Shown: positions 1,792-32,000 of the stretch, piece after piece
How positions within the stretch are numbered: the stretch's first letter is position 1
Layout: the number at the start of each line of letters is the position of its first letter
Source: Promethearchaeia archaeon
GTDB lineage: Archaea > Asgardarchaeota > Lokiarchaeia > Sigyniarchaeales > SOKP01
Direction of reading: 5' to 3'
Assembly: GCA_046497275.1 (NCBI GenBank)
Contig: JAWOFX010000176.1
Location: forward strand, 1,822-33,821
Length of the DNA: 32,000 nt
Notes under the pieces: generated by a model
What the model was told of the DNA's origin: nothing
Databases searched by the model: none
What the model saw: the letters and a program-made list of their open reading frames with translations, nothing else
Translations under genes and position numbers: made by a program

Positions 1792-2598
1792 TTAACTCTT
1801 ACTATGATTTAGTTTTCTTTTGCATAATTCTTTTACAAAATATGTAGCAACCATCTCAGGAGTGGTTCCTGAGCCAAAGCCTGCATCATATCCTAATTCT
1901 TTTGCTAATTTATTTTCAATTCTTGCTCCACCGCAAATCAATATAATTCTATCTCTTAGACCCTCCGCCTCTAATAAATCAACTAAATTGGTTAAGTTTT
2001 CCACATGAATATTTTTTTCAGTTACCGTTTGAGAAACTAAGAGCACATCAGTATTTAGTTCTATAGCTTTTGCCGCAAATTTTTCATTGGAAACTTGGGC
2101 TCCCATATTATATGCTTCAATCATCTCATATCGTTCCAAACCATAATGGCCGGCATATCCTTTCATATTCATGATCGCATCAATACCAACTGTATGAGCA
2201 TCCGTTCCAGTAGATGCCCCTAAAACAATTATTTTTCTTCCTAAATGATTCTTGATATATTCATTAATTTCTTTGAAGGACATTACATCTGAATCAATAG
2301 AATCTATTTTAATCTTAGTATAATTAATAAAATGGTCAACTTCCCCATAAATAATAAAGAAAGTAAATCCTTTATCTAGTTTCTTATGATATGTAATCAG
2401 TGGATCTTGTATTCCCATTTTTATAGCTAAGATCTTAGCTGCTTCTAACGCTTTAACATCTTCTTGGAGTGGAAGAGTAAAACTAATTTGAACTTTTCCA
2501 TCATTCATAATATCTCCATAAGGTTTAACCCTCGTTAAATCCAAATTTGCCCTTAGATCTTTATTTTCTTTTAAATTAAAATTATTAGCCATATTCAT
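1792..2598 (-). CDS. kamE: D-lysine/L-beta-lysine 5,6-aminomutase beta subunit (AdoCbl- and PLP-binding)
   Basis: Base-off B12 motif DxHxxG in STGTDAHTVGIDAIMNMKGYAGHYGLE, which also carries the PLP lysine. N-terminal PYGD..NDGKVQISFTLP dimerisation domain, SQTVT and GGARI motifs. ATGA overlap with the kamD stop. Confidence 0.96.
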   Translation of the reverse strand: MNMANNFNLKENKDLRANLDLTRVKPYGDIMNDGKVQISFTLPLQEDVKALEAAKILAIKMGIQDPLITYHKKLDKGFTFFIIYGEVDHFINYTKIKIDSIDSDVMSFKEINEYIKNHLGRKIIVLGASTGTDAHTVGIDAIMNMKGYAGHYGLERYEMIEAYNMGAQVSNEKFAAKAIELNTDVLLVSQTVTEKNIHVENLTNLVDLLEAEGLRDRIILICGGARIENKLAKELGYDAGFGSGTTPEMVATYFVKELCKRKLNHSKS

Positions 2599-4181
2599 CC
2601 CTCATTAAACAATTCTCTTTTCATTAAATCTATAAATGGATTATAATAATTGGGATCTTTCTTAATTATTCCTTCAAAACCTTTTCCTCCCTCTAATTTT
2701 CTGCTAATCCCAGCAAAAATTCCATTTTCAATTGTTCTGAAAATACCGATTTTTTCAATTTTTTCTAATAATTCAAAAGCTCCATATAAAACATTCTCTG
2801 CCCTCTTTTGAATAATACCATCCTCCTTAAATGATATCTCTTCTCCAAATGACTTCATGTTATTGAAGATATACTGAGCATTTTCAATTGATAATGCTCT
2901 ATCAGAAAGAAAAGGCGTATGTATCGCTTCGGTTAGCATGCCAAGTAAATGGATTTTTTGATGGGTTAAAATTGTAATCATATTGAAAAGGGCATCTTGG
3001 ATATGTGCTTTATAAATATTACCTGTTTTGAACTTTGTAGGAGGCATATATTTAAGTGGGGCATTTGGAAAGATTTCTCTTGACATTTGAGCTTGTGCTA
3101 GTTCATATAGAAACCCATTTTCAATAGCTGGATCCATTTCAAAAGCATGTCCTAATCCCATCTGTTTTTCTTTCAAACCTGCAAGAAGAGCAAATTGTTC
3201 ATTAATAAATTGAGATGCTAATACTGTATGAGCATTTTCAAATGCATCAGAAGTTTTTAAATAGTTATCCTCTCCAGTATTTATAATGATTCCAGCATAA
3301 GCATTTAACATACGGGAAAAATGTTGATCAATTAAGGTTCTTTTCATATTAATATCTCGGAATAATATTCCGTATAAAGCATCATTAAGCATAACATCTA
3401 ATCGTTCAAGTGCTCCTATTGCCGCAATTTCAGGCATACATAATCCAGAACAATAATTAGTCAATCTAATATATCTTCCAATCTCTTCGCTAACCTCATC
3501 GAGAGCAGTTCTCATTAATCGAAAATTTTCCTGAGTTGCATAAGTTCCACCGAAACCTTCGGTAGTTGGACCATAAGGAACGTAATCCAAAAGACTTTGA
3601 GCTGTAGATCTAATTACTGCAATTATATCTGCTCCTTGTCTTGCAGCAGCTTGTGCTTGAACTATATCCTCATAAATGTTTCCAGTAGCTACAATCACAT
3701 ATAAATATGGTCCTTGTTTTTCTCCATATCTATGAATTAATTTATTCCGTTTTTTTTTATTATTCTTGATGATTCTTAATGTTTCTTTTGCTTTTTCCTC
3801 AACCACTTGTTTTATATCATTTATATTTTCGAATGGTAATTTAGTTATATTTAGTTCATTTTCAGAAATACGTTGTGCGATTTCTTGAAATGTGATGTTT
3901 TTTTGTATGACAGCATTTCCTAAGAATAAAGCTACTCCCTGACCTAAGTCTGAATTTTTTTTAATATGATCTACAATTATGTTTGATAAAGGGATATCAT
4001 ATTTATCTACTCCATCTATACCGAGTAATCTACAAATCGTTCTTTCAATCGTAGTAGTTGTATATTTATTTATTTTTTTCTGAGTATTTAGTGCTATATT
4101 TTTTGCTAAATTTCTAGCCCTATCTACTAAGGCGAAGTCTAAATTTAATTTACTTCTTCTGAATTTATTCTCTCTATCCAT
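2595..4181 (-). CDS. kamD: Lysine 5,6-aminomutase alpha subunit (TIM barrel)
   Basis: YVIVATGNIYED, IAVIRSTAQSLLDYVPYG, EGFGGTYATQENF, NYCSGLCMPE, INTGEDNY, KYMPPTKF and MLTEAIHTP. Adjacent to kamE. The lysine context favours KamD over ornithine aminomutase. Confidence 0.96.
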   Translation of the reverse strand: MDRENKFRRSKLNLDFALVDRARNLAKNIALNTQKKINKYTTTTIERTICRLLGIDGVDKYDIPLSNIIVDHIKKNSDLGQGVALFLGNAVIQKNITFQEIAQRISENELNITKLPFENINDIKQVVEEKAKETLRIIKNNKKKRNKLIHRYGEKQGPYLYVIVATGNIYEDIVQAQAAARQGADIIAVIRSTAQSLLDYVPYGPTTEGFGGTYATQENFRLMRTALDEVSEEIGRYIRLTNYCSGLCMPEIAAIGALERLDVMLNDALYGILFRDINMKRTLIDQHFSRMLNAYAGIIINTGEDNYLKTSDAFENAHTVLASQFINEQFALLAGLKEKQMGLGHAFEMDPAIENGFLYELAQAQMSREIFPNAPLKYMPPTKFKTGNIYKAHIQDALFNMITILTHQKIHLLGMLTEAIHTPFLSDRALSIENAQYIFNNMKSFGEEISFKEDGIIQKRAENVLYGAFELLEKIEKIGIFRTIENGIFAGISRKLEGGKGFEGIIKKDPNYYNPFIDLMKRELFNEG

Positions 4182-4225
4182 AATATATTCAATTCATTTT
4201 TTATTATTCTACTAATTAAGCTATT

Positions 4226-5260
4226 TTATTGAATCCCTATATCAAATACAGGTATTTTGGTTTTCAATTTTAATTTTTTCATAAATTTAGAGCTCTCAAA
4301 CCTATATCCGTAAGGTGATGTTGGATTTATGGCTATTGCTATTAAATTAATAGCTTTCATAACTTTTATTTCATTTCTTGTCTGTAGGAAATTTGAAAAA
4401 ACGTTCCTTTCTACAAATAACTTTGTTGCATCTTCTATTATAATGGTAATATTCTTTTTATATCTGTGTTCTTTTATTAGCATTTTTAATAATTTATCTG
4501 TTAATGCTCCTCTCACTACTAAATAATTAGTATCTTCATTTATTCTGTCTAAGATTTGCTTTTCATGTCCTAGTAAGGTTGATATATTTAGGTAAATTGT
4601 TTTATAAGAATTGTCTATAAACCCTACTTTTGATTTCTTGAAAATATCTTTCGTAAGTTCTCTTATTTTTATGCTCTCCTCTCTGGGAAGTGTTAGAATG
4701 TTAACGGTATGTATGGTTTTATCTATGACAACCTCCATTTTCTCCGATACAGATGCACCCGTAGAAAGGATAACATAATCGGAAATCAGAGGTGTTGCAT
4801 ATGATTTTCTATCAAAAGCTCCATCAATTAGTATAAGATCACATCCTAATTTCTTAAATTCTCCAATAATAGCAAACAATTGATTATTAATCGAAGGACC
4901 CGCTAATTCTATGAATCCATCATTGATGGCTTCAACTATTTTTATATATCCTAGAGGGGTATTATAAGGAGAAGTTTTAATAGTTCTTACTTTTACTTGA
5001 CTTGCTTCAATCGTATCCTCGGCTGTAGCTATTATGGTATTCTTTTTTATAAATATAAGTGGTTTAGGTAAATTTGTAATAATATCGTAGGGCTCTCCAT
5101 CTCTTCCTATTGAACTTATTCCCAATTTAGTGTTTTTATTAAGATTTTTAATAATATAATTTAATATTGTGGTTTTCCCAGAATTTTTTGCTAATCCGAC
5201 TATTGATATTACTTTACATTTTTTTTTAGTTAAGTCAAAAAAAAATTCCATGAAATCCAT
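4226..5260 (-). CDS. kamB: Lysine 5,6-aminomutase reactivase subunit KamB-like
   Basis: P-loop-like SIVGLAKNSGKTT, SIGRDGE, ELAGP and ILIDGAFDRKS. About 340 aa, positioned between kamA and kamD as in bacterial kam operons. Confidence 0.82.
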   Translation of the reverse strand: MDFMEFFFDLTKKKCKVISIVGLAKNSGKTTILNYIIKNLNKNTKLGISSIGRDGEPYDIITNLPKPLIFIKKNTIIATAEDTIEASQVKVRTIKTSPYNTPLGYIKIVEAINDGFIELAGPSINNQLFAIIGEFKKLGCDLILIDGAFDRKSYATPLISDYVILSTGASVSEKMEVVIDKTIHTVNILTLPREESIKIRELTKDIFKKSKVGFIDNSYKTIYLNISTLLGHEKQILDRINEDTNYLVVRGALTDKLLKMLIKEHRYKKNITIIIEDATKLFVERNVFSNFLQTRNEIKVMKAINLIAIAINPTSPYGYRFESSKFMKKLKLKTKIPVFDIGIQ

Positions 5261-5287
5261 TTCTCAAATAACCACCAACTAATTGAT

Positions 5288-6532
5288 TTATTTAGTTAGC
5301 TTTTTTCTTCTTAATTTTCTTTTAAGATCTTCAGGTTCTATCGTGAGTTTATCTCCATTGAGTAAACCAGCAACTCCTATTAATGGCTCTTTATTTTCAT
5401 TATCACATTTGGGTTCATAATTTTTTGGTTCTTCATAAGTTGTTATAACACCTTCAAAATTTCTTAATACAACTCTCTGATTCCCTTGTGATATTGTGTA
5501 ATCAGGCATAACAGGAATTTTTCCACCACCACCTGGAGCATCTACTACAAATGTTGGAACACATAATCCAGAGGTATGACCTCGTAGCCCTTCAATTATT
5601 TCAATTCCTTGAGCAATTGTGGTTCTGAAATGTTCTAAACCCATAGATAAGTCGCATTGATACATATAATAAGGTCTAACTCTGATCTTTACTAGTTCAT
5701 GAACTAATTGCTTCATAATATATGTACAATCATTAACCCCTCTCAAGAGAACTGATTGATTTCCCATAGGAATACCACTATCTGCTAACATCTCACAAGC
5801 TCGTTTCGATTCCTCAGTTATTTCATTAGGATGATTAAAATGAGTATTAAACCATAATGGATGATATTTTTTAAGTATTTCACATAATTCGGATGTGATT
5901 CTTTGAGGCATAACAACGGGCGTTCTAGAACCTATTCGTATGATCTCTACATGAGAAATTGCTCTTAACCTTTTTAAAATTTCTTCCAATTTTTTGTTTG
6001 AAATAAGAAGAGCATCACCTCCAGATAATAAAACATCTCTGACGTCTGTTGTTTTTTCAATATATTCTATACAGTTATCTATTTGCGATTGTGGAGGCGC
6101 TTGGTCATGATGGCCCGCGAATCTTCTACGAGTGCAATGACGACAATACATAGAACAATTTTCAGTGACTAAAAATAGAACTCTGTCTGGATATCTATGA
6201 GTTAATCCTTTAGTTGGTGAGTCTATATCTTCATGAAGAGGATCCTCTAGATCTGCCGGTGATTTATATAATTCCCTAATAGAGGGAACAGCTTGTTTAC
6301 GTATTGGATCATCTGGATCATTAGGATCAATTAAAGAAAGGTAATAAGGTGTTATTGCCATCCTTAATTTTTCCAAACATTTTCTAATATCTTGTTCCTC
6401 TTTGGCAGATAGAGGTAAATATCTCTTTAATTCTTCTATAGTCGTTATCCTATTTTTAACTTGCCAGTGCCAATCATTCCAATCTGAATCATTAACATCT
6501 TTAAATAACTCATATCTTCTATTTATCTTCAT
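5288..6532 (-). CDS. kamA: L-lysine 2,3-aminomutase (radical SAM, PLP)
   Basis: [17 protein letters not shown], CxxxCxxC (CSMYCRHC), [28 protein letters not shown], and PGGGGKIPV (PLP lysine). Confidence 0.98.
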
Positions 6533-6560
6533 ACTTAAACCAATTCTCCATAATTCTTAA

Positions 6561-6568
6561 TATATAAA
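6561..6568 (-). promoter_or_regulatory. Candidate TATA box for kamA
   Basis: TTTATATA on minus, 29-36 nt upstream of the kamA ATG, inside the 171-nt kdd-kamA gap. Confidence 0.4.
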
Positions 6569-6683
6569 TTAATTTAAATCACTTTAATTAATAAATAAAT
6601 GAAAGAAAGGATAATATTTCTAATTTCGGTATAGGTTGGGATATTTGTGGGAATTTAAATATGAAAAGATATTTAAATATAGG

Positions 6684-6693
6684 AAAAAGTAAA
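6684..6693 (-). terminator. Candidate U-rich terminator after kdd
   Basis: TTTACTTTTT on minus, 10-20 nt after the kdd TGA. Confidence 0.3.
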
Positions 6694-6703
6694 TCACATC
6701 TGA

Positions 6704-7741
6704 TCAGGTATATCTTTCTTTAAGGATCTGATATAATTTTTCATTTTCTCTAACTAGATCTAATGCAATATTAGCATGATTTTTTGTATAGCCATTTCCT
6801 ATAATCATATTGACATCTTTTCCAACTCCTTCTGCTCCTAAAGCAGCTTTGGTAAAACTCGTAGCCATAGAAAAGAAATATACAATACCCCCGTCTTTTG
6901 CGGGTAGGATAGTTGACATCTCTGTATTAGGGATGCTAAGACAATTAATTGATTTATCCACCTCTTCTCCATTGTTAACTCTCAATGTTTTTTCTAAAAC
7001 ATCAATAGGATTTAATACTTCTGCAATTATTACTTCATCACAGAAATTCGTACTTCTTAAAAAATCTGCTCTTTCTTTATTTCTTGCTTCACCAATGACT
7101 AATCCTTCTTCCCCGACTAATTTTTTTGCCATACAACAACACATTAAGCCAGATTTACCAGTTGCGCCTAATATTAGTACTCTATCATTTTTTTTGACTA
7201 ATTTTTTAATTTGTGCTGGAGCACCAGCGACATCGAATATTGCTAAAGCTAAAGTTTCATTAAAATCCGCAGGTAATTTTGCATAAATTCCACATTCAAA
7301 TAAAATTGCTTTTCCTCTAATTTTGACTCTCTCGATTTCTGGTTCAATTTTTATAATCTCCTTTATTTTAAGAGGAGTAAGAGAAAGTGATACCAATGTC
7401 GCAATCTTATCTCCAATTTTTAAATCTCTCGTATTTTTAAGATCTCTACCAATATCTTCAATTGTCCCAATAAGCATTCCTCCAGAACCTGTAACTGGAT
7501 TTTGCATCTTCCCTCGTTCTTCCACAATTTCCATAATTCTAGTTTTAACTTTTTCTAAATCATTTTTTGACTCTTTCATTAATTGAGTAAAAGAGGCAGA
7601 GTCAATATTTAAATAATCCACATCAATTAAGATCTCATTATCATAAAGTTCCATCTTATTAGATATTTTATCTGCTGCTTGAGGTAAAGTTCCTTCTGGT
7701 TCAATTACTCGATGAGACCCATACTTGTTTTCTTTCAACAT
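6704..7741 (-). CDS. kdd: L-erythro-3,5-diaminohexanoate dehydrogenase
   Basis: YGSHRVIEP..LPQAA, NIDSASF, RGKMQNPVTGSGGMLIG, ATLVSLSLTPL, DVAGAPAQ, Rossmann GATGKSG and FFSMATSF..AALGAEG. Confidence 0.95.
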   Translation of the reverse strand: MLKENKYGSHRVIEPEGTLPQAADKISNKMELYDNEILIDVDYLNIDSASFTQLMKESKNDLEKVKTRIMEIVEERGKMQNPVTGSGGMLIGTIEDIGRDLKNTRDLKIGDKIATLVSLSLTPLKIKEIIKIEPEIERVKIRGKAILFECGIYAKLPADFNETLALAIFDVAGAPAQIKKLVKKNDRVLILGATGKSGLMCCCMAKKLVGEEGLVIGEARNKERADFLRSTNFCDEVIIAEVLNPIDVLEKTLRVNNGEEVDKSINCLSIPNTEMSTILPAKDGGIVYFFSMATSFTKAALGAEGVGKDVNMIIGNGYTKNHANIALDLVRENEKLYQILKERYT

Positions 7742-7794
7742 TTTTTTTAATTATTATTAATCAATGAATTAATTATGAATTTATGATTAAATAT

Positions 7795-8499
7795 TTATTT
7801 TTGAGCAATAAATAATCCTCTTTCTTTCATAAAACCATCATCTAAGAATACAGTACTAAGTCCAGCGTCTTCAAAAATTTGAAGTGTTTTGTCTATTTCA
7901 AAAAGTCCTAAGATATGTTTTTCCTTAAAATATTCAACTTCCTCACCAAATTTAGCTATTAAATAATGCATATTCATTATAGATAAATTATCTTCTACCT
8001 TGGAATCATTTAAACGTGCGATCTTGATTTTATCATCCTCATAGGTGGTCATACCAGGACTCCCTTCTCTAAATACAGATCTTGTGAACCATGGTTCAAT
8101 TAAAATTATTCCACCCTTTTTTAAATGATCATTAAATAGCTGAATGGCTTTTTTCAAATTTTTGTAAGTTCGTAAATATCCTATTGAACTAAATAAACAA
8201 ATAATTATATCGAAAGTTTTATTTAGATTCAGATCAAGCATATTAGATCGGATAAATGTGACGTCTGGTAATTTCTCTTTAGCAATGGTTAACATATTTT
8301 CATTTATATCCACTCCAACGCAATTATAATCCTTCTTAAGATATTTCAAATGTTCTGCTGTACCACAAGCTATGTCTAAAAGATCATTTCCCTCTGATTT
8401 TTTATTATCTTTTATTATTTTCTTTAATTTTGCGACTTCCGACTTATAATCTTTAAATTGGTATATTAAATCGTAAATTTCTGCAAATTTTTCGTACAT
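7795..8499 (-). CDS. Class I SAM-dependent methyltransferase, resembling TylM1/DesVI-type amine N-methyltransferases
   Basis: AEIYDLIY..KDY, motif I LLDIACGTAEH, GVDIN..ML, FDIIICLFSSIGYL and HLKKGGIILIEPWF. Class I MTase is secure. The subfamily is a by-eye resemblance. Confidence 0.85.
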   Translation of the reverse strand: MYEKFAEIYDLIYQFKDYKSEVAKLKKIIKDNKKSEGNDLLDIACGTAEHLKYLKKDYNCVGVDINENMLTIAKEKLPDVTFIRSNMLDLNLNKTFDIIICLFSSIGYLRTYKNLKKAIQLFNDHLKKGGIILIEPWFTRSVFREGSPGMTTYEDDKIKIARLNDSKVEDNLSIMNMHYLIAKFGEEVEYFKEKHILGLFEIDKTLQIFEDAGLSTVFLDDGFMKERGLFIAQK

Positions 8500-8509
8500 A
8501 TTTTTTTAC

Positions 8510-9343
8510 CTAATCTTTTTTATTAATTCCCAAAATTTTCCGAGCCTTTTGAGGTGAAGCAATTTTTCTACCCAAACTTTCGGAAATATTTACAAGTTTT
8601 TCCACTAAGCTTCCATTTGATTCAGCCAATTTCCCTTTAGAAATATATATATTATCTTCAAAACCAACCCTGGCATGTCCCCCCATTATTATAGACACTG
8701 TAGCCATATTGAATTCATATCTGCCAATCCCTGTAACAGTATAAGTAGCATCAATAGGTAAGGATTCTACAAGAAAGACTAAATCTCTTACTGTTGCGCT
8801 AATACCACCATTTACACCTAAAACCAAATTAAAATGCATTGGTAATTTTATAATTCCTTGCTTATGTAATTTCAACACCATATCAATCATTCCCTTGTCA
8901 AAACATTCTAATTCTGGTTTTATTCCTAATTTATTCATCTCTTTAGCAAAATAAATTATATCATTTTCTGTATTAATGAATATATCATCTCCTCCAAAAT
9001 TCATAGTTCCACAATCTAAGCTAGCCATTTCTGGAGGAGGATATAAATATATTGGTTGCAATCTCTCCTTATTATTCATTCCTATTGCACCACCTGTGGA
9101 GGGTTGAATAATCACATCGGGACATCTTTTCTTTATTTCTTTTATACAAACTTCAAATCTTTTCTTATTTTGTGTAGGGGTCCCATCATCATTTCTCACA
9201 TGTAAATGTATAATACTTGCCCCCGCTTTATAAGCTTTTTCTGCCTCTATTCCTATTTCTTCTATAGTATAAGGAATAGAAGGATTCTGTTCTTTAGATA
9301 CTTCCGCTCCACAAATTGCGGCTGTTATGATTAAATCTTCCAA
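8510..9343 (-). CDS. kce: 3-keto-5-aminohexanoate cleavage enzyme (BKACE family)
   Basis: IITAAICGAE, Zn-binding HLHVR, IQPSTGG, EMASLDCGTMNFG, KPELECFD and GHARVGFEDN. TTG start. Confidence 0.95.
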   Translation of the reverse strand: MEDLIITAAICGAEVSKEQNPSIPYTIEEIGIEAEKAYKAGASIIHLHVRNDDGTPTQNKKRFEVCIKEIKKRCPDVIIQPSTGGAIGMNNKERLQPIYLYPPPEMASLDCGTMNFGGDDIFINTENDIIYFAKEMNKLGIKPELECFDKGMIDMVLKLHKQGIIKLPMHFNLVLGVNGGISATVRDLVFLVESLPIDATYTVTGIGRYEFNMATVSIIMGGHARVGFEDNIYISKGKLAESNGSLVEKLVNISESLGRKIASPQKARKILGINKKD

Positions 9344-25565: not shown

Positions 25566-27755
25566 ATGAAAACAAGAGGATCTATTAAAAAATTAAAAAT
25601 TTTACTACCATTCATCATATTATTCGTTATTCCATTGACCCTTAATGTTTTTGGAAGTTTTAAGACAGAAAATCACACATCAGTTTTTATTTCTCCAGAA
25701 AACTCAAATTTGTTTTCTTCTGATTCAGAAATGAATGGAAGCGAATATTTAATTATTACTCATGAGAATTTCTCTGATACTATAAAAATTTTAGCAGAAG
25801 ATAAGATTAAACACGGAATATCGACTAAAATTGTGAATTCATCTTCTATTTGCGAGAATCCCACTCCAGAGAATATTTCTGATTATATTCAGAATGCTTA
25901 TGATACCTGGAATCCGAAACCAAAATACATTTTATTAGTAGGAGATGTTGAATATATCCCAGCTCATACTGGTGCGGTATATGATGTAAGTACAGATCTA
26001 TATTATGCGACGGTTAACGGATCGGATTATTTTCCTGATTTATATGTCGGCAGATTTCCCGTTAAAACTAATGAAGAACTTGAAATAATTATTAATAAAA
26101 CGATAAATTATGAAGAGAATTATGATCCTTCAAAAGCTATGTTCTCAGATGTTCTTTTAGCAGCCTATGACCAATATGGAAGATATTATATAAACACTTC
26201 TGAATCAATTAGAGAATTTTTAGAAAATAATTCATATACAACCACTTGCGTTTATACAGGAGGGGATTACACGGGAACAACAGAAGATATTATTAATTGT
26301 ATAAATCAAGGGGCACTTTTGTTAAATCATAGGGATCATGGGGGAGTCAATGGGTGGAGTTATCCTTCATTTACAATCTCCGATATTGATGATCTCAATA
26401 ATAGTCACTTTCAACCCGTTATGTTTTCTATTAACTGTCTAAGCGGATCTTTTGATTATCCATCCGATTGTTTTGGAGAGGCTATTCTAAAGACAGAAAA
26501 TAAAGGAATAAGTGCTTTTATTGGAGCATCTACCGTGAGTTATAGTGGATACAATGATGAATTAAATAAAGGATTATTTGCTTCGATTTGGCCAGATTAT
26601 TATCCAAATTATTCCAATGGTAATGTCACTCGAACTACAGAATTAGGAGGAATTTTGAACTTTGGAAAAATGTTTATGTATGATAAATATTACCTCACGA
26701 ATGGAGAGGGTTATATATGGTCAGCATCAGAATCTACTACACGCTTACAATTTGAAATTATGAACCTTTTAGGAGATCCCGAGTTATCTGTAATAGATAA
26801 CAAAGCTCCCGAGATACATAATTTATCATTGAATTCAGATAATTTATTTTATGGTGAAACCCAAAAATTAAGTTTCAATGTGAGAGAGAAATTTGCATTG
26901 GACTCTATTAATATAACAATAGATAATGATAGCTATTTATTAACTAATCTCACAGAAGAATTTTATGAATTTAGCTTTCAGCCAAATAAAATAGGAAAAA
27001 TAATTTATAAAATTGAAATAAATGATACTTCGGGAAATACTGTTAATTTCACAGGTGATTTTATCGTAAATCCTCAACCAATGAATATAGAGACCTCTAA
27101 AACTCTGCTAAACATATTAGGCAACAGTTATTTTTTATTAGATATCAATTTAACGGGCTCCATCTCTGGATTACTTTCTGGACCAGCTAATATTTCTACG
27201 GATTGGTCTAAGGATTATAATGTCATAAATCATAATAATGGAACATTTACCCTTGATTTTTCTACTGCTGATCTTCCTGAAAGCGGAATAACAGAATCTT
27301 ATACAATAGAAATCTATGCTAATAAAACAAATTATATAAGTACATCAAAATCTTTAAAGATCTCAATCAATCCAATTCAAACATTAGTTAATTTAAATAT
27401 TTCTATTTTAAAGGTTTATATTAATCAAACTTTTAATCTTAAAGTAAATTTCACAGAGGAAGTATCCGGGCAACTGATATCTAATGCTAATTGTTCTGTA
27501 AATTGGCTAAAGAATGCTAATATCACCAGAGTGTCAAGTGGATTTATTATCTCATTTTCAACATTAGGACTTGAAAAAGGCAATTACACTGCTGTAATTA
27601 CTTTAGATAAACCAGGTTATGAAACATCTTTTAATAACATTAATATTATTATTGAGGAATCCCCTCCAAATCTAAGGATTGATTTGGTTTTTGTTCCGAC
27701 CATTCTGATTGGTGTTGCGGGGGTATCAATAGTGATAATTAAGAAACTTTATTAA
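25566..27755 (+). CDS. Surface-anchored C25-family (gingipain-like) cysteine peptidase with Ig-like stalk and C-terminal TM anchor
   Basis: Signal anchor, YLIIT, PKYILLVGD..YIP, TDLYYA...SDYFPDLYVGRFP, His in NHRDHGG..GW, Cys in FSINCLSGSFD, FIGAS..SYS and NLLGDP. Ends in TM plus KK. Confidence 0.85.
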   Translation: MKTRGSIKKLKILLPFIILFVIPLTLNVFGSFKTENHTSVFISPENSNLFSSDSEMNGSEYLIITHENFSDTIKILAEDKIKHGISTKIVNSSSICENPTPENISDYIQNAYDTWNPKPKYILLVGDVEYIPAHTGAVYDVSTDLYYATVNGSDYFPDLYVGRFPVKTNEELEIIINKTINYEENYDPSKAMFSDVLLAAYDQYGRYYINTSESIREFLENNSYTTTCVYTGGDYTGTTEDIINCINQGALLLNHRDHGGVNGWSYPSFTISDIDDLNNSHFQPVMFSINCLSGSFDYPSDCFGEAILKTENKGISAFIGASTVSYSGYNDELNKGLFASIWPDYYPNYSNGNVTRTTELGGILNFGKMFMYDKYYLTNGEGYIWSASESTTRLQFEIMNLLGDPELSVIDNKAPEIHNLSLNSDNLFYGETQKLSFNVREKFALDSINITIDNDSYLLTNLTEEFYEFSFQPNKIGKIIYKIEINDTSGNTVNFTGDFIVNPQPMNIETSKTLLNILGNSYFLLDINLTGSISGLLSGPANISTDWSKDYNVINHNNGTFTLDFSTADLPESGITESYTIEIYANKTNYISTSKSLKISINPIQTLVNLNISILKVYINQTFNLKVNFTEEVSGQLISNANCSVNWLKNANITRVSSGFIISFSTLGLEKGNYTAVITLDKPGYETSFNNINIIIEESPPNLRIDLVFVPTILIGVAGVSIVIIKKLY

Positions 27756-28173
27756 TGAAATTTAAAAATAAAAACACTCAATTTTCTTTTCAGGTTTTTT
27801 TTTCTGATCATTATAGAAGTATTATAGATTATCTAGTCCAATTCTCTGAACAAATATGAGTAGATTTTTACTCAGTTGTCAAAATAATTAAATTTTTATA
27901 ATTTTTTAAAAATAGATTTAAATATAAGAATAATCTTGTTTTTTTATGTTTATCACTTAGAGTTCTATAGCTTATACTGTTTATTTAGTATAAAATATAA
28001 GGAAAAACTAAGATAACGGGGAAAACGATACTAAGAATTAAAACAGAAATTAGTAATTTATAAATATAAAATTATGATACTAATGATTAGAGATTTTATG
28101 ATGTAAAATGGGGTTTTATTACGGAAGTAAAGACAAAAAAAATATAATTTATCTAAAAATAATTTAGCTAAAA

Positions 28174-31100
28174 ATGTTGAGAAAAAAACATCTAATTATA
28201 AGTCTCTTTTTTATCATTTTTTTATCCTTTACAATCTCAATATTCTTTACTCAAAAGACTCATGAATTTCCATATTCCCAAGATAAGGATAAATTTAATC
28301 ATATTAATACTTCTTCTGATGATCTTGTTTTAGCCGAAGGTGTTAATGACCCATTAAATATAACGGATAAAGCAATGCTTTATGATAATCAAGAAATTAT
28401 ATTAACGGGACAAAATGAGGAGAATTTATCGTATTATTTGGCAGATGAGTGGGAAGCTACCAAAATAGAAACAAATTTAATTAATATATCTGATAAATGG
28501 AATTGGGTTGAAAATGGTGACTTATTTCCTATAGATACATTCACTGTAAATGAGAGTTATGAAAGTACTCATACATTTAGCAGTCAAATAGACTATGACC
28601 CTACGGTCCCAAGCAATATACAATCAAATATAACTGTCAGCGGAGCAATTGCAATAAGAGTACACTTTAAAAATATCTCATTCGCTGCTGATAAAGATTA
28701 CTTGTTTATGTATAATAATAATTATACGCTAATTTATCATGAGGGTGGAAATGGAAGAGTGAGGCAAAATTTCTATTCTCCATGGATAAAAGGAAACCAG
28801 ACGTTAATCACAATTAATTCAGAAGGAGGAACTTCCAGTGATGGTTATTATATCGATTATTATGAGTTTATAAATGGAAGCTCTCAATATTATAACAATT
28901 CAGAATATTGGAATGAAAATAGTTATACGCTAGGGAGTGAAGAAAGAACATTTTCCGGTTATGGTGATATAAAGGATGAAGCAGGGATGTACGCTAATCT
29001 AATTGGAACAATTAAAGAAAACCCAGCAAAATTCCAAGCAGAATATGAGAGTGGAGATTACATTGAATTATATCAAAACCTAAGTATCCCAAGAGGAAGG
29101 ACAATTGACGGATCAATTTCATTTGATTTTTTACTCGAATTTGGAGTTTCTACAGATCAGATTATAATGTATGTGGAAATAAATGATCAAGTAATTTATT
29201 CCAAAAGATTTAATGATATTGTAAGTCAAGGAAAGAATCAATGGTTTTCTACTGGTAAAGTAACCATGAATTCATGGGATGTTATTCCAAACGTATTTGA
29301 TAATGCGCTTAATAATGAAAATATAAAGATTTCGCTTGGAATAAAAACAACTGATAATTTAGAATTTGATCAAGAAGAACAAGGCGAACAATTAATATGG
29401 TTTGATAATATAAATTTAGAGTTAACAACCTTAGTAAATTCGACTCAAAGCGATATAAATCTCACCATTAATAATTATAACCTTATTGATTCCGATGAAT
29501 GGGGAAAATCATCTATTACTCTAAATGAAACTTGGACAGAAGATCCTATTTTATTATCAATAAATAGTTCAACCCCTTATTTGATCTTTGACATAAGTAT
29601 TTCAGTTAGTTTATATCATTATTCTTCAACTTTATTAAATGAATTCCAAGATGAAGGAATATCATATGAAATTTTAGAGAATGGAACCATATATTGGGAA
29701 TTCCTTCATAATTTTGGTAAACCAAGTTTATATGATGATTTTGAAATTTTTATTCAAAAACCTAAAGACTGGAGTTTCATTCAGGTACTAGACCCAATTT
29801 TTTCCGAAATACCCTTTGAAGGGGGAACTTCCAATGACAAATACCTATTAATTAATGAATCATATACTATAAATTCAGGAACGTGGAGATTTAAAGCTAC
29901 CTCACCTAATTATATAAATATTTCGAATACAAAATTATGGAAAAATGGTGTTTTGGGTGATGATACGTTCTTATCTGGAGATAATTTAAAAATATCTACT
30001 CAAATTAACTTTTCTGGATATATTCCCCGAAATGTAGAAGAGACTTCAGCAAAATTAGCCTTAACTTTTCCGAATGGTACAATATGGTATCAAGAAAGTC
30101 TTACTGTAGGTACCGATGGATATGTAAATTTTACTGAATTATCCTTAACTCCATATTTGTTGGCTGGAATATACAATTTTACTATTTTCTGGAATAATGG
30201 AACTTCCTTAGGAGGAATTAAACAGAATTTCATATTAAATCATTATTCTAATTTAGTACTGAATAAACCAACCGATGCGATATCAGATCTGACGACTGAA
30301 GCTTTTTCTGGTGATATTATCCCAATCAGAGTTATTTATAAAGATTCTGAAAATCAATATCAAATCCCAAACGCAGATCTTACTTTAAATTGGACTGATG
30401 GAATTATTCAAATTGACGAAGCTGCATCAGGAATTTATGAAACATATTTGGATACTACAAATTTAACTCGAGGTTTACATAAAATTTTTATAAATTCTTC
30501 GAAAATAGGATATTTTACTGCAAATCTAACTTTAATGCTTAATATAGTTGAATCAACTATGATTCAGCGTCTCTCATCTGAGAATTTTATAGAACTTCAT
30601 GCAGTTAGTTCAATCACATTTAATTATACAAGTTTTAATGGATTTGGAATTGCTAATGCTAATGTATCTCTTGATTTGGATCAATCACTTTATAATATAT
30701 CCAGTCCTTTGAACGGGACATATATTATTGATTTTTCTACTTCTTATATCGATTCATTAGGGACATATCAAATCACTTTTGATTTTTCTGCTCTAGGTTT
30801 TGAATCTCAGCAATATATCTATCAATTTGAGATAATAGAACAAAAAATTGACTTAAATGTTTATATAGATAATCAAAAAAGATCTGAAAATTTTCGAATA
30901 GAAAAAAAAATTAATTCTATCTTGAATATATCTTTAAGAATTTATTCTCCAATAGATAATACGTTCATAAATAACGCTAGTATAGAATTTTTATGTGGGT
31001 CTTATGAATATACTTTAGGTGGAGAGAGTAATTATTGGTATAATGACTCAATAATATTAACTAGTGAACATTTTTCCTATGGTGTAAATTTCGTACAATT

Positions 31101-32000
31101 ACGATTCCAAAAAGACGATTATCAAACAGAGATATTTGATTTTGAAATATCGTTAAACAAAATAGCTATAGAATTAAATCCTGTGAGTTTTGAAAATACG
31201 ATTAACATAAAACCAGGAGAATCGCCAACAATCATTATAGAATTATTTGAAGAAGGAACAAATATCAGTATTACGAATGCTACGGTATTTTATTCTTGGG
31301 AGTATGGTATTGGAAGATTAGATGAGATCTCGGAAGGAACATATCAAGAAACGCTATCTGTTCCTGGATCTCTTTATGGCTCTTATGAGATCATATTTTC
31401 AGTTTCAAAAAATTCAAATTATGAGATTGTTGAGTTTTCATATTTTATTGTGATCTCGGAGCCGCCTTCCTCACCTCTTAATTTTTGGATTATAATTGTC
31501 ATATTTTTCATCATTGTTGGAGTAGCATCGAGTTTACTTTTAAGAACTTACGTATATATCCCAAGAAAAAAGGCAATAGAAAAAGAATTTCAAGAAAAAA
31601 TCCAACCATTTAAAGATGCGAGAAATATAATTGGGATTAATGTAATACATAAAGATTCGGGATTATCTGTCTATTTTGAAAGATATTCCTATTTAAAAGA
31701 TATAGATCAGAGTTTGTTCTCAGGGTTTATTCAAGCAATTATGATATTTGGCAGAGAGATAGGAAAAGAAAAAAAGAAAGAAAAGGGAATCTCTGAGAGA
31801 GAATTAAAAGTTGCTGAATTAGATTTTAAATATTTTTATACTTTATTATGTGATTATAAGGAATTAAGAATTCTTTTAATTCTTAAAGACAGTGCATCAG
31901 ATAATTTAAAAAACAAATTAGTTATAACAATAAAACATTTATATTCAAAAATTTCCGTTCTCCTACAAGATTTTGCCGGAAATTTAAAACCGTTCGGAGA
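28174..32000 (+). CDS. Very large type I membrane/surface glycoprotein (>1275 aa, 3' truncated): signal anchor, CUB-like domain, Ig-like repeats, TM, cytoplasmic longin-like domain
   Basis: Not in the ORF track. I read the frame from ATG 28174 (MLRKKHLIISLFFIIFLSF) to the window end without a stop. TM at about 31483-31545 (FWIIIVIFFIIVGVASSLLL), followed by PRKK and a longin-like tail. Confidence 0.85.
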   Translation, partial: MLRKKHLIISLFFIIFLSFTISIFFTQKTHEFPYSQDKDKFNHINTSSDDLVLAEGVNDPLNITDKAMLYDNQEIILTGQNEENLSYYLADEWEATKIETNLINISDKWNWVENGDLFPIDTFTVNESYESTHTFSSQIDYDPTVPSNIQSNITVSGAIAIRVHFKNISFAADKDYLFMYNNNYTLIYHEGGNGRVRQNFYSPWIKGNQTLITINSEGGTSSDGYYIDYYEFINGSSQYYNNSEYWNENSYTLGSEERTFSGYGDIKDEAGMYANLIGTIKENPAKFQAEYESGDYIELYQNLSIPRGRTIDGSISFDFLLEFGVSTDQIIMYVEINDQVIYSKRFNDIVSQGKNQWFSTGKVTMNSWDVIPNVFDNALNNENIKISLGIKTTDNLEFDQEEQGEQLIWFDNINLELTTLVNSTQSDINLTINNYNLIDSDEWGKSSITLNETWTEDPILLSINSSTPYLIFDISISVSLYHYSSTLLNEFQDEGISYEILENGTIYWEFLHNFGKPSLYDDFEIFIQKPKDWSFIQVLDPIFSEIPFEGGTSNDKYLLINESYTINSGTWRFKATSPNYINISNTKLWKNGVLGDDTFLSGDNLKISTQINFSGYIPRNVEETSAKLALTFPNGTIWYQESLTVGTDGYVNFTELSLTPYLLAGIYNFTIFWNNGTSLGGIKQNFILNHYSNLVLNKPTDAISDLTTEAFSGDIIPIRVIYKDSENQYQIPNADLTLNWTDGIIQIDEAASGIYETYLDTTNLTRGLHKIFINSSKIGYFTANLTLMLNIVESTMIQRLSSENFIELHAVSSITFNYTSFNGFGIANANVSLDLDQSLYNISSPLNGTYIIDFSTSYIDSLGTYQITFDFSALGFESQQYIYQFEIIEQKIDLNVYIDNQKRSENFRIEKKINSILNISLRIYSPIDNTFINNASIEFLCGSYEYTLGGESNYWYNDSIILTSEHFSYGVNFVQLRFQKDDYQTEIFDFEISLNKIAIELNPVSFENTINIKPGESPTIIIELFEEGTNISITNATVFYSWEYGIGRLDEISEGTYQETLSVPGSLYGSYEIIFSVSKNSNYEIVEFSYFIVISEPPSSPLNFWIIIVIFFIIVGVASSLLLRTYVYIPRKKAIEKEFQEKIQPFKDARNIIGINVIHKDSGLSVYFERYSYLKDIDQSLFSGFIQAIMIFGREIGKEKKKEKGISERELKVAELDFKYFYTLLCDYKELRILLILKDSASDNLKNKLVITIKHLYSKISVLLQDFAGNLKPFG

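What the first reader, a model, noticed from the sequence alone, without database searches (positions are those of the whole stretch)
28174..32000. Giant surface glycoprotein ending in a cytoplasmic longin-like domain (missed by the ORF track)
Seen: about 1070 extracellular residues with roughly 35 N-x-S/T sequons (hand count). These include a CUB-like segment (GAIAIRVHF...YSPWIKGN...SSDGYYIDY, about 28640-28865) and Ig-like repeats. After a single TM comes NIIGINVIHKDSGLSVYF..IDQSLFSGFIQAIMIFGREI..ELDFKYFYTLLCDYKELRILLILK..SDNLKNKL, a beta-beta-alpha-beta-beta-beta-alpha pattern typical of longin domains. Established: longin and roadblock domains partner small GTPases in eukaryotic trafficking and are expanded in Asgard archaea. 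Inference: a single-pass receptor or adhesin coupling surface contact to small-GTPase signalling.
Basis: partly seen in the sequence, partly recalled or inferred. Interest (0 to 1): 0.65.

Follow-up and report, generated by a model that had tools for sequence, protein, structure and literature searches.

The report
Asgard surface glycoprotein with longin tail
This Lokiarchaeal (Asgard) gene encodes a giant, probably sugar-coated surface protein joined by one membrane helix to an internal longin domain, the fold eukaryotes use to dock small GTPases; the layout is real and belongs to a large unannotated Asgard family, but its internal partner is unknown.

Summary
Window 28174-31998 (+) is one uninterrupted ORF of 1275 codons, cut only by the end of the contig. 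It encodes an N-terminal signal or anchor, a 1069-residue ectodomain with 37 N-x-S/T sequons (17.8 +/- 3.7 expected), one TM helix and a cytoplasmic tail. AlphaFold2 folds the tail confidently as helix, beta-beta-alpha-beta-beta-beta-alpha. Because the copy is truncated, it matches roadblock and longin domains about equally.

The complete tail of a full-length ortholog adds a third helix and a winged-helix domain. That model matches longins best (Sec22 Z 12.1, VAMP7 11.2, a Lokiarchaeal longin 11.2), so "longin-like" is supported. The window copy lacks about 96-110 C-terminal residues.

The tail module is not in Pfam or NCBIfam, has 7490 representative relatives, and was found in 184 of 201 sampled Asgard genomes. 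About 91% of top members have a TM helix just upstream.

Coupling to small GTPases remains an inference from the fold. No GTPase gene lies beside any of the eight such genes in this genome, and the synteny leads I followed were not conserved. "CUB-like" and "Ig-like" have only sub-threshold support.

This scan has already met the same architecture in other Asgard genomes, so this is one more member of an undescribed family.

The parts
28174..31998 (+). Whole gene as held in the window: 1275 codons, 3'-truncated by the contig end. Full-length relatives are 1384-1413 aa.
28174..28254 (+). N-terminal basic stretch plus hydrophobic segment (residues 1-27): signal peptide or N-terminal anchor
   Evidence: hydropathy scan; same feature in all orthologs checked
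28255..31461 (+). Ectodomain, residues 28-1096: 37 N-x-S/T sequons, 1 Cys, rich in I/S/N/T/Y; 40-42% identical to Lokiarchaeal orthologs
28642..28860 (+).
30307..30510 (+). Internal repeat copy A (residues 712-779), probable beta-sandwich unit
   Evidence: hhalign self-comparison of the ortholog alignment, E 7e-7
31213..31416 (+). Internal repeat copy B (residues 1014-1081)
31462..31554 (+). Single transmembrane helix (residues 1097-1127)
   Evidence: basic residues follow it (family median net charge +5 in the juxtamembrane stretch)
31564..31626 (+). Basic juxtamembrane helix (residues 1131-1151)
   Evidence: AlphaFold2 model H4-24
31627..31998 (+). Longin-type domain (residues 1152-1275): beta1, beta2, alpha1, beta3-5, alpha2, cut just after the conserved G....F motif. 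Helix alpha3 and the winged-helix domain are missing. Near-invariant family residues: D1148, G1163, L1181, G1184, F1185, A1188, R1232, S1242, G1269, F1274.

Best explanation
The gene encodes a type-I, single-pass, N-glycosylated cell-surface protein of a Lokiarchaeon. When complete it is about 1390-1410 aa: a signal or anchor, a roughly 1070-residue beta-rich ectodomain, one TM helix, a basic juxtamembrane helix, a longin domain and a C-terminal winged helix. [quoted passage not shown]

The cytoplasmic longin-winged-helix unit is a conserved cassette found throughout Asgard archaea. It sits behind very different and fast-changing ectodomains.

Inferred mechanism: the cassette is a membrane-fixed docking platform that ties a variable surface protein to a cytoplasmic partner. 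By analogy with every characterised longin/roadblock platform, the leading candidate partner is one of the roughly 57 small GTPases of this genome. Lokiarchaeal GTPases lack lipid anchors and so need a protein anchor to act at the membrane. That would allow outside-in signalling or inside-out positioning of the surface protein.

Shown: gene structure, topology signals, sequon enrichment, fold, family size and spread. Inferred: glycosylation, partner binding, any GTPase link.
For: The ORF is continuous and colinear with 1384-1413-aa orthologs.

Topology: sequons occur only outside (37 vs 0, z = 5.2). Sequon density ranks 23rd of 1536 long ORFs. The genome has an STT3/AglB gene (4e-45). The juxtamembrane stretch is basic.

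Fold of the window's own tail: pLDDT 83. All top-50 Foldseek hits are roadblock-superfamily proteins at E about 1e-4. VIA-align gives MK-D1 Roadblock3 Z 11.6, MglB 11.3 and VAMP7 longin 9.6.

Fold of the complete ortholog tail: pLDDT 85, pTM 0.79. Longins rank first: Sec22 Z 12.1 with 123 of 137 residues aligned, VAMP7 11.2, Lokiarchaeal longin 8yqg 11.2, sedlin 10.7, Fuzzy 10.2. Roadblocks score <= 9.8. The C-terminal 70 residues match winged helices (Zur Z 8.1, rmsd 2.7 over 68 residues).

Family: 7490 representative clusters at E <= 1e-3. Of 193 top proteins, 175 have a TM helix within 60 residues upstream, and a median of 85 residues follow the domain. The module was found in 184 of 201 sampled genomes of the phylum. 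Eight complete copies in this genome group together in the tree (85/84).

Links of the wider family to GTPases: one paralogous longin is fused to a Roc/Arf-type GTPase. Such fusions, and the lack of CAAX motifs and prenyltransferases in Lokiarchaeum, are reported in PMC10933270 and PMC4917890. Cryo-tomography of a cultured Lokiarchaeon shows many complex surface proteins on a single membrane without an ordered S-layer (PMC9834061).
Against: There is no genomic link to a GTPase. None lies in the window, and none lies within 3.7 kb of any of the 8 module genes. Three ortholog loci have a different conserved neighbourhood with no adjacent GTPase; the nearest is about 6.5 kb away in one locus.

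The one membrane-anchored relative that follows a GTPase gene does so only in this genome. The GTPase-fused longin lies in the other, soluble branch of the family tree.

Longin folds also serve non-GTPase roles, in SNARE regulation and coat adaptors. The family lacks the GP motif of GAP-type longins; it has a conserved S-G there (PMC12290439).

No sequence profile (Pfam, NCBIfam, PDB sequences) recognises the domain, so the assignment rests on predicted structure. Glycosylation and surface exposure are inferred only.
Confidence: 0.6

Rival explanations
1. The longin-winged-helix tail has nothing to do with GTPases. It is a sorting, anchoring or clustering device for surface proteins. For example, it could bind the cytoskeleton, ESCRT or coat-like proteins, or other tails, in the way SNARE longins and adaptor sigma/mu subunits work without GTPase catalysis.
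For: The best structural matches of the complete domain are SNARE longins and adaptor or TRAPP subunits, not GAP or GEF catalytic longins. There is no GTPase synteny anywhere I looked. The cassette is attached to very many different ectodomains, as expected for a generic handling tag. Six of 8 family genes sit at assembly breaks and presence is patchy (17 of 46 family genomes), as expected for variable surface coats.
Against: No partner of this kind is identified either. Lokiarchaeal genomes lack SNAREs and classical coats according to PMC4917890. Other branches of the same sequence family are fused to GTPases.
Confidence: 0.27
2. The tail is a roadblock (MglB/LAMTOR-type) domain rather than a longin, working like a membrane-anchored MglB or Ragulator subunit.
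For: With the truncated window copy, roadblocks rank first: MK-D1 Roadblock3 Z 11.6, MglB 11.3, LAMTOR 10.2. All 50 best Foldseek hits are roadblock-superfamily proteins. A helix precedes beta1, as in roadblocks.
Against: The complete domain has two C-terminal helices. It then matches longins over their full length (Z 10.2-12.1, 120-131 residues), ahead of roadblocks (Z <= 9.8, about 104 residues). Roadblock alignments start at beta1 and do not use the juxtamembrane helix. Pfam Robl_LC7 gives no hit.
Confidence: 0.08
3. It is a membrane-tethered transcription regulator. The C-terminal winged helix binds DNA, either at the membrane as in ToxR/CadC-type one-component systems or after proteolytic release, and the ectodomain is the sensor.
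For: The C-terminal domain of orthologs has a winged-helix fold whose best match is the DNA-binding domain of Zur (Z 8.1). Scattered sub-threshold Pfam hits go to DNA-related winged helices such as DnaD_N, WH_MCM2 and RPA_C.
Against: The winged helix is not markedly basic: median net charge +1, range -9 to +17. Its sequence is poorly conserved, with 24% mean column identity and only one near-invariant residue, against 38% for the alignment of the juxtamembrane helix plus longin domain. Winged helices are also common protein-binding modules. Five to 14 or more copies per genome with hypervariable ectodomains is unusual for transcription factors.
Confidence: 0.04
4. The gene is an assembly artefact: a chimeric join of an ectodomain gene with an unrelated tail.
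For: The gene lies at a contig end of a 188-contig metagenome-assembled genome.
Against: More than 25 independent orthologs from other assemblies have the same colinear ectodomain-TM-tail order at 99-100% query coverage. So does a same-genus genome.
Confidence: 0.01

Closest known systems
Eukaryotic and Asgard longin domains (Sec22b, VAMP7, Ykt6; sedlin/synbindin of TRAPP; adaptor sigma subunits; Fuzzy/Mon1/Ccz1; the longin domain of a Lokiarchaeota Roadblock-Longin protein, PDB 8yqg)
   Same: Same beta-beta-alpha-beta-beta-beta-alpha-alpha fold over the whole domain (Z 10.2-12.1, 120-131 aligned residues). The domain is cytoplasmic and sits at a membrane.
   Different: No detectable sequence-profile relation to any Pfam longin family. 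The TM helix lies N-terminal to the longin, whereas SNAREs carry it at the C-terminus. It is followed by a winged helix and preceded by a giant glycosylated ectodomain. There is no SNARE motif.
Roadblock/LC7 platforms: MglB, LAMTOR2/3 of Ragulator, Asgard roadblocks (PDB 9jue, 7yh1, 7f8m)
   Same: Shared core fold (Z 9.8-11.6). Ragulator is likewise a membrane-fixed platform that docks GTPases lacking a lipid anchor.
   Different: The helix arrangement is of the longin type. Anchoring is by the protein's own TM helix, not by a lipidated partner (LAMTOR1). No partner GTPase is known.
NPRL2/NPRL3 of GATOR1 and other GP-motif GAP longins (FLCN, SMCR8), with the 'NPRL2-like longin' families reported in Asgard archaea (bioRxiv 10.1101/2020.10.19.343400; PMC12290439)
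   Same: A longin domain combined with a C-terminal winged-helix-type domain. The NPRL2/3 composition is from my own knowledge. Abundance of such longins in Asgard genomes is stated in the cited papers.
   Different: The GP motif between beta1 and beta2 is replaced by a conserved S-G. There are no Pfam NPR2/NPR3/folliculin hits. These chains were not among the 50 best VIA-align matches, which does not exclude them. This protein is membrane-anchored and has an ectodomain.
Asgard longin-GTPase and roadblock-GTPase fusion proteins (Klinger et al. 2016 as summarised in PMC4917890; Tran et al. 2024, PMC10933270)
   Same: Same broad longin sequence family. This genome's fusion, C71, matches the window's tail at E 1.2e-4 and carries a Roc/Arf-type GTPase.
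   Different: The window's protein has no GTPase domain. Its tail belongs to a separate, membrane-anchored branch.

Membership tests
Longin domain (fold level) | Five-stranded antiparallel sheet with topology beta-beta-alpha-beta-beta-beta-alpha-alpha and no N-terminal helix packed on the sheet | tested here: met
   Complete ortholog tail: b1 27-34, b2 40-45, a1 51-75, b3-5 91-116, a2 122-144, a3 151-164. The window copy has everything up to a2 and is then cut.
Longin domain (fold level) | Full-length structural match to solved longin domains, standing above other folds | tested here: met
   Sec22 Z 12.1 (123 of 137 residues), VAMP7 11.2, 8yqg 11.2, sedlin 10.7. Roadblocks score <= 9.8. With the truncated window copy the order is reversed: roadblocks 10-11.6, longins 8-9.6.
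Longin domain (Pfam PF13774 and other Pfam longin families) | Score above the curated cut-off of a longin profile | tested here: not met
   No hit for the window's protein at E <= 1. Paralog C71 hits Longin at E 0.02, 15.2 bits against a 26.2-bit cut-off. One relative hits Intu_longin_1 at 14.3 bits against 23.7.
Longin/roadblock GTPase platforms | Binds or regulates a small GTPase | not testable with these tools
   No candidate partner emerged from synteny. This needs a biochemical or pairwise screen.
Roadblock/LC7 (MglB, LAMTOR, DYNLRB) | alpha-beta-beta-alpha-beta-beta-beta core with the N-terminal helix packed on the sheet; Pfam Robl_LC7 | tested here: inconclusive
   The core matches well, but roadblock alignments begin at beta1, and the complete domain favours longins by about 2 Z units. 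No Pfam Robl_LC7 hit.
GP-motif GAP longins (FLCN, SMCR8, NPRL2) | Conserved Gly-Pro motif in the beta1-beta2 region (PMC12290439) | tested here: not met
   The family consensus is K-x-S-G at that loop; the window has K-D-S-G. G1163 is near-invariant and no Pro follows it.
GP-motif GAP longins (FLCN, SMCR8, NPRL2) | Catalytic arginine finger | not tested
   A near-invariant Arg (R1232, in beta5) exists, but its equivalence to the GAP arginine could not be assessed without model coordinates.
CUB domain (ectodomain residues 157-229) | Pfam CUB above its gathering score (21.4 bits) | tested here: not met
   No hit in the window's protein at E <= 1. One ortholog (P0029) reaches 17.1 bits, E 0.007, on the equivalent segment; 2 of 19 orthologs hit at E <= 0.05.
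CUB domain (ectodomain residues 157-229) | Conserved disulfide-forming cysteines of canonical CUB domains (own knowledge) | tested here: not met
   The whole 1069-residue ectodomain has one Cys.
Ig-like / bacterial Ig (Big, invasin D3) repeats | Tandem beta-sandwich units of about 100 residues recognised by a profile or by self-similarity | tested here: inconclusive
   One significant internal repeat pair (E 7e-7) and weaker ones (E about 0.1) between residues about 700 and 1090. Invasin_D3 is sub-threshold in 9 of 19 orthologs (best E 1.8e-4) and absent from the window copy.
Winged-helix domain (C-terminus of the module, absent from the window copy) | Three-helix bundle plus beta-hairpin wing matching solved winged helices | tested here: met
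   Ortholog model residues 176-247 match Zur (7dh7) at Z 8.1, rmsd 2.7 over 68 residues, and TbtB at Z 7.9. Only scattered sub-threshold Pfam winged-helix hits. Z near 8 is the level the tool calls common, so this shows the fold only, not family membership.

The most novel reading that the evidence does not exclude
Asgard archaea have a large, undescribed class of single-pass surface receptors. Their conserved cytoplasmic longin-winged-helix cassette recruits or switches unlipidated small GTPases at the plasma membrane. That would be a prokaryotic forerunner of receptor-to-GTPase signalling and of the Ragulator/SRalpha-style anchoring of GTPases on membranes. It would couple the many variable 'complex surface proteins' seen on Lokiarchaeal cells to the cell interior.
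Probability: 0.25. Interest if true: 0.85.

Novelty: new variant of a known kind. Interest (0 to 1): 0.6.

Why it matters
Asgard genomes hold dozens of small GTPases and longin or roadblock domains whose partners and sites of action are almost all unknown. Their GTPases lack the lipid anchors that eukaryotes use to place them on membranes.

A conserved longin-winged-helix cassette hard-wired by a TM helix to hundreds of different, fast-evolving surface glycoproteins is a concrete, testable candidate for how these cells connect their surface to eukaryote-like internal machinery. That surface has no ordered S-layer and is thought to mediate the syntrophic cell-cell contacts discussed in models of eukaryogenesis.

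The family is missing from Pfam and NCBIfam, and I found no description of this architecture in the papers I could search. A profile built from these alignments would annotate thousands of 'hypothetical proteins'.

For this particular gene the gain is modest. It is one truncated member of that family, and no partner was found.

Tried and rejected
1. Homodimer prediction of the complete cytoplasmic module (ortholog, 2 copies): score 0.01 against a mark of 0.42, no verdict. It is not used as evidence either way.
Three metatranscriptome runs of one study hold 20-31% of sampled words.
I used `genome search` instead. Spread outside the phylum was therefore not tested.
4. Sequence-profile searches against PDB sequences gave nothing significant: tail, winged helix, ectodomain.
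5. ESM Atlas look-up of the ectodomain: best score 0.77 to an unnamed cluster, which is uninformative.
6. Search for the missing 3' end elsewhere in the assembly, with ortholog C-termini and the same-genus tail: nothing found.
7. GTPase synteny. None lies near the 8 module genes. The C84 7TM-longin/GTPase pair is not conserved in 6 homologous loci. No surface-protein gene lies beside the longin-GTPase fusion C71.
8. Functional pairing with the upstream C25 peptidase: not found beside the orthologs in 4 genomes or in 3 ortholog loci.
9. CUB assignment: below threshold.
10. Klinger et al. 2016, the primary catalogue of Lokiarchaeal longins, is not held in the library. I cannot exclude that it depicts TM-anchored forms.


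Full report
**The gene**

Window 28174-31998 (+) is a single open frame of 1275 codons starting at ATG. It is the only ORF of 60 codons or more that overlaps window 26000-32000, apart from the upstream gene. It has no stop because contig C155 of the 188-contig genome (3.85 Mb, 98.9% complete) ends at the window's last base. G+C is about 29% throughout. Nothing suggests a frameshift. At least 25 relatives from other assemblies cover 94-100% of the query in the same order.

**Organism and relatives**

All 51 whole-protein relatives with a source label come from Lokiarchaeota/Promethearchaeota metagenome bins, plus one bin labelled Thorarchaeota (P0010, among the best full-length relatives) and one weak hit labelled Hermodarchaeota. 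All are named 'hypothetical protein'. Full-length forms are 1384-1406 aa, and some are 1590-1920 aa. The nearest complete one is in a same-genus genome: 1413 aa, only 48% identical over the C-terminal 421 residues. It continues for 96 residues beyond the point where the window copy stops. The protein is patchy and fast-evolving. With the C-terminal 426 residues as query, 17 of 46 genomes of the family, counting the window's own, and 1 of 6 other same-genus genomes have a match at E <= 1e-30. The ectodomain has no paralog in its own genome.

**Topology and the ectodomain**

A hydropathy scan finds a hydrophobic N-terminus (residues 5-27) after a basic MLRKKH start, and one TM helix at 1097-1127. 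Orthologs show the same pattern.

- The 1069 residues between them carry 37 N-x-S/T sequons, against 17.8 +/- 3.7 in 2000 shuffles (z = 5.2). The tail carries none.
- The protein ranks 23rd of 1536 long ORFs of the genome for sequon density.
- The genome has an STT3/AglB oligosaccharyltransferase gene.
- The stretch after the TM helix is basic across the family, with a median net charge of +5.

Together these point to an N-out, C-in, N-glycosylated surface protein. Glycosylation itself is inferred.

Pfam finds nothing in the ectodomain. Among 19 orthologs, Invasin_D3 (an Ig-like fold) appears below threshold in nine and CUB in two. However, the ectodomain has a single cysteine, so it lacks the disulfides of canonical CUB domains. 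A profile self-comparison finds one significant repeat pair, residues 712-779 against 1014-1081 (E 7e-7), and weaker ones nearby. So the membrane-proximal third is probably a string of similar beta-sandwich units. I did not fold the ectodomain.

**The tail**

The window's residues 1128-1275 were folded with a 140-sequence alignment. This gave pLDDT 83 and pTM 0.74: a juxtamembrane helix, then beta-beta-alpha-beta-beta-beta-alpha. All of Foldseek's 50 best PDB matches are roadblock-superfamily proteins, including LAMTOR2/3, dynein roadblock, Rag C-terminal domains and Asgard roadblocks (E about 1e-4). The exhaustive aligner puts MK-D1 Roadblock3 (Z 11.6), MglB (11.3, 10.8) and LAMTOR (10.2) just above longins (VAMP7 9.6, Sec22 9.3, MON1 9.3).

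The two folds differ mainly in their terminal helices, and the window copy is cut there. I therefore folded the complete cytoplasmic region of a full-length ortholog (P0008:1138-1384, 124-sequence alignment), which gave pLDDT 85 and pTM 0.79. It adds a third helix (alpha3) and then a small helical domain with a hairpin.

With this model longins lead and cover their whole length: Sec22 Z 12.1 (123 of 137 residues), VAMP7 11.2, the longin of a Lokiarchaeal Roadblock-Longin protein 11.2, sedlin and synbindin 10.7, Fuzzy 10.2. Roadblocks fall to Z 9.8 or lower and align only from beta1 to alpha2. Foldseek gives a mixture of both. Residues 176-247 match winged helices (Zur Z 8.1, rmsd 2.7 over 68 residues; TbtB Z 7.9). 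The module is therefore juxtamembrane helix, longin, winged helix.

No sequence library sees it. Pfam and NCBIfam give no significant hit on the window's protein, on complete orthologs or on diverse members. Profiles of the tail and of the winged helix find nothing in PDB sequences.

**The family**

A 12-sequence profile of the domain finds 7490 representative clusters at E <= 1e-3 among 1.84 billion, 1795 of them at E <= 1e-10.

- Of 193 top proteins, 175 have a TM helix within 60 residues upstream, and a median of 85 residues follow the domain.
- Their lengths run from about 200 to 3000 residues, so the same cassette sits behind very different ectodomains.
- The longin-winged-helix profile hits 184 of 201 sampled genomes of the phylum at E <= 1e-10. 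Genomes of the window's own family have 5-14 copies, and 14 is the scoring cap. I did not test genomes outside the phylum.
- This genome has about 31 ORFs with the longin domain. Eight carry the complete single-pass cassette. Others are polytopic membrane proteins, soluble forms of 135-280 aa and a tandem soluble pair. In addition, a fusion to a Roc/Arf/Ras-type GTPase on contig C71 was found by protein search and lies outside that ORF set.
- In a tree of the domains, the eight single-pass tails form one group (85/84) next to the polytopic ones. The GTPase-fused longin lies in the other, soluble cluster.

**Is there a link to GTPases?**

I found none beyond the fold.

- The window's other genes are metabolic: lysine fermentation enzymes, short-chain dehydrogenases, a GH3 glycosidase and an MFS transporter. 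There is also a C25 peptidase directly upstream.
- About 57 small-GTPase-like ORFs exist in the genome, but none is within 3.7 kb of any of the eight cassette genes.
- Three ortholog loci share a different neighbourhood: a 104-aa gene upstream and a CxxCxxCC-domain gene downstream. None has an adjacent GTPase.
- In the window's genome those two flanking genes lie side by side on contig C172, 144 nt apart, with nothing between them. The window's gene is therefore not in the ancestral position.
- The C25 peptidase is not found beside the orthologs.
- The single membrane-anchored relative that follows a GTPase gene (C84, 217 nt) has no GTPase within about 1.5 kb in six homologous loci.
- No surface-protein gene lies beside the longin-GTPase fusion.
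- A homodimer prediction gave no verdict.

**Literature**

Lokiarchaeal genomes are known to hold about 41 longin-like and 38 roadblock domains, some fused to GTPases, and to lack CAAX motifs and prenyltransferases (PMC4917890). Asgard roadblocks have been solved and a longin modelled (PMC10933270). Liu et al. list 130 roadblock-superfamily gene clusters and note much domain shuffling, including NPRL2-like longins fused to signalling domains (bioRxiv 10.1101/2020.10.19.343400). GAP-type longins with a GP motif occur in Asgard archaea (PMC12290439). This family has S-G at that position and is not of that class. Cryo-tomography of Lokiarchaeum ossiferum shows numerous complex surface proteins on a single membrane without an ordered S-layer (PMC9834061).

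I found no paper describing the ectodomain-TM-longin-winged-helix architecture.

**Earlier notes of this scan**

The same architecture was reported before in Thor-, Heimdall-, Atabey- and Lokiarchaeial genomes, and related longin and GTPase loci were reported in this genome. I used these as leads. My own searches agree on the architecture and its spread. They did not reproduce any GTPase linkage at this locus.

**Verdict**

The fold assignment, longin-like and strictly longin once the domain is complete, is supported. The receptor-to-GTPase reading remains a reasonable but untested inference, at roughly one chance in four. This is a new architectural variant of a known domain class, already seen elsewhere by this scan. 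This copy is truncated and adds no partner.

Noticed in passing
window 25566-27755 (+): The gene directly upstream encodes a 729-aa Peptidase_C25 (gingipain-like) protein (E 1.5e-75). It has the 4th highest sequon density of 1536 long ORFs (3.84 per 100 aa), so it is probably another secreted or surface glycoprotein. Its adjacency to the surface-protein gene is not conserved in the relatives I checked.
   Followed up: partly
own genome: C56:1-2577, C98:88-4356, C93:217-2565, C88:786-3056, C167:36592-37680, C155:29995-33819 (the last is window 28174-31998): Six of the eight TM-longin-winged-helix genes lie within 800 nt of a contig end, and three are truncated. Only 13.7% of long ORFs lie that close to an end (binomial P 1.5e-4; P 7e-4 against ORFs of 700 aa or more). 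These genes seem to break the assembly, as expected for strain-variable surface genes.
   Followed up: partly
own genome C172:33501-34544: The 104-aa gene and the CxxCxxCC-domain gene that flank the large gene in three ortholog loci are adjacent here, with a 144-nt gap and no large gene. The ancestral slot is empty, and the only family member of this genome sits elsewhere, on C155.
   Followed up: partly
own genome C71:37194-38114 (-), locus L013:910-1830 (-): This longin-Roc/Arf-type GTPase fusion has no ATG, GTG or TTG between the upstream TAG stop and the first strand of its longin domain. ATC or ATA codons about 25 nt downstream of a TTTAAATA box are the only start candidates, so it may use a non-canonical start or be leaderless.
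   Followed up: no
window 2595-9343 (-): A lysine-fermentation-type cluster: D-lysine 5,6-aminomutase alpha subunit (E 1e-267), lysine 2,3-aminomutase (radical SAM), a beta-keto acid cleavage enzyme and a methyltransferase. It fits an amino-acid-fermenting lifestyle.
   Followed up: no
sister genomes, e.g. G008:C30 (matches at about 8.6, 32.4, 34.9 and 37.3 kb), G168:C71, G077:C13, G121:C83: Family members of about 760 aa stand in tandem arrays of three or more copies, spaced about 2.4 kb apart. This points to expansion by tandem duplication.
   Followed up: no
window 15074-17713 (-) and 9895-11493 (-): An 879-aa and a 532-aa ORF have no significant Pfam family. The second has only a weak coiled-coil-type hit. 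I did not examine them further.
   Followed up: no
window 29000-32000: Three metatranscriptome runs from one salt-lake study hold 20-31% of the sampled words of the gene. DNA runs from freshwater and other sediments hold 56-72%.
   Followed up: partly
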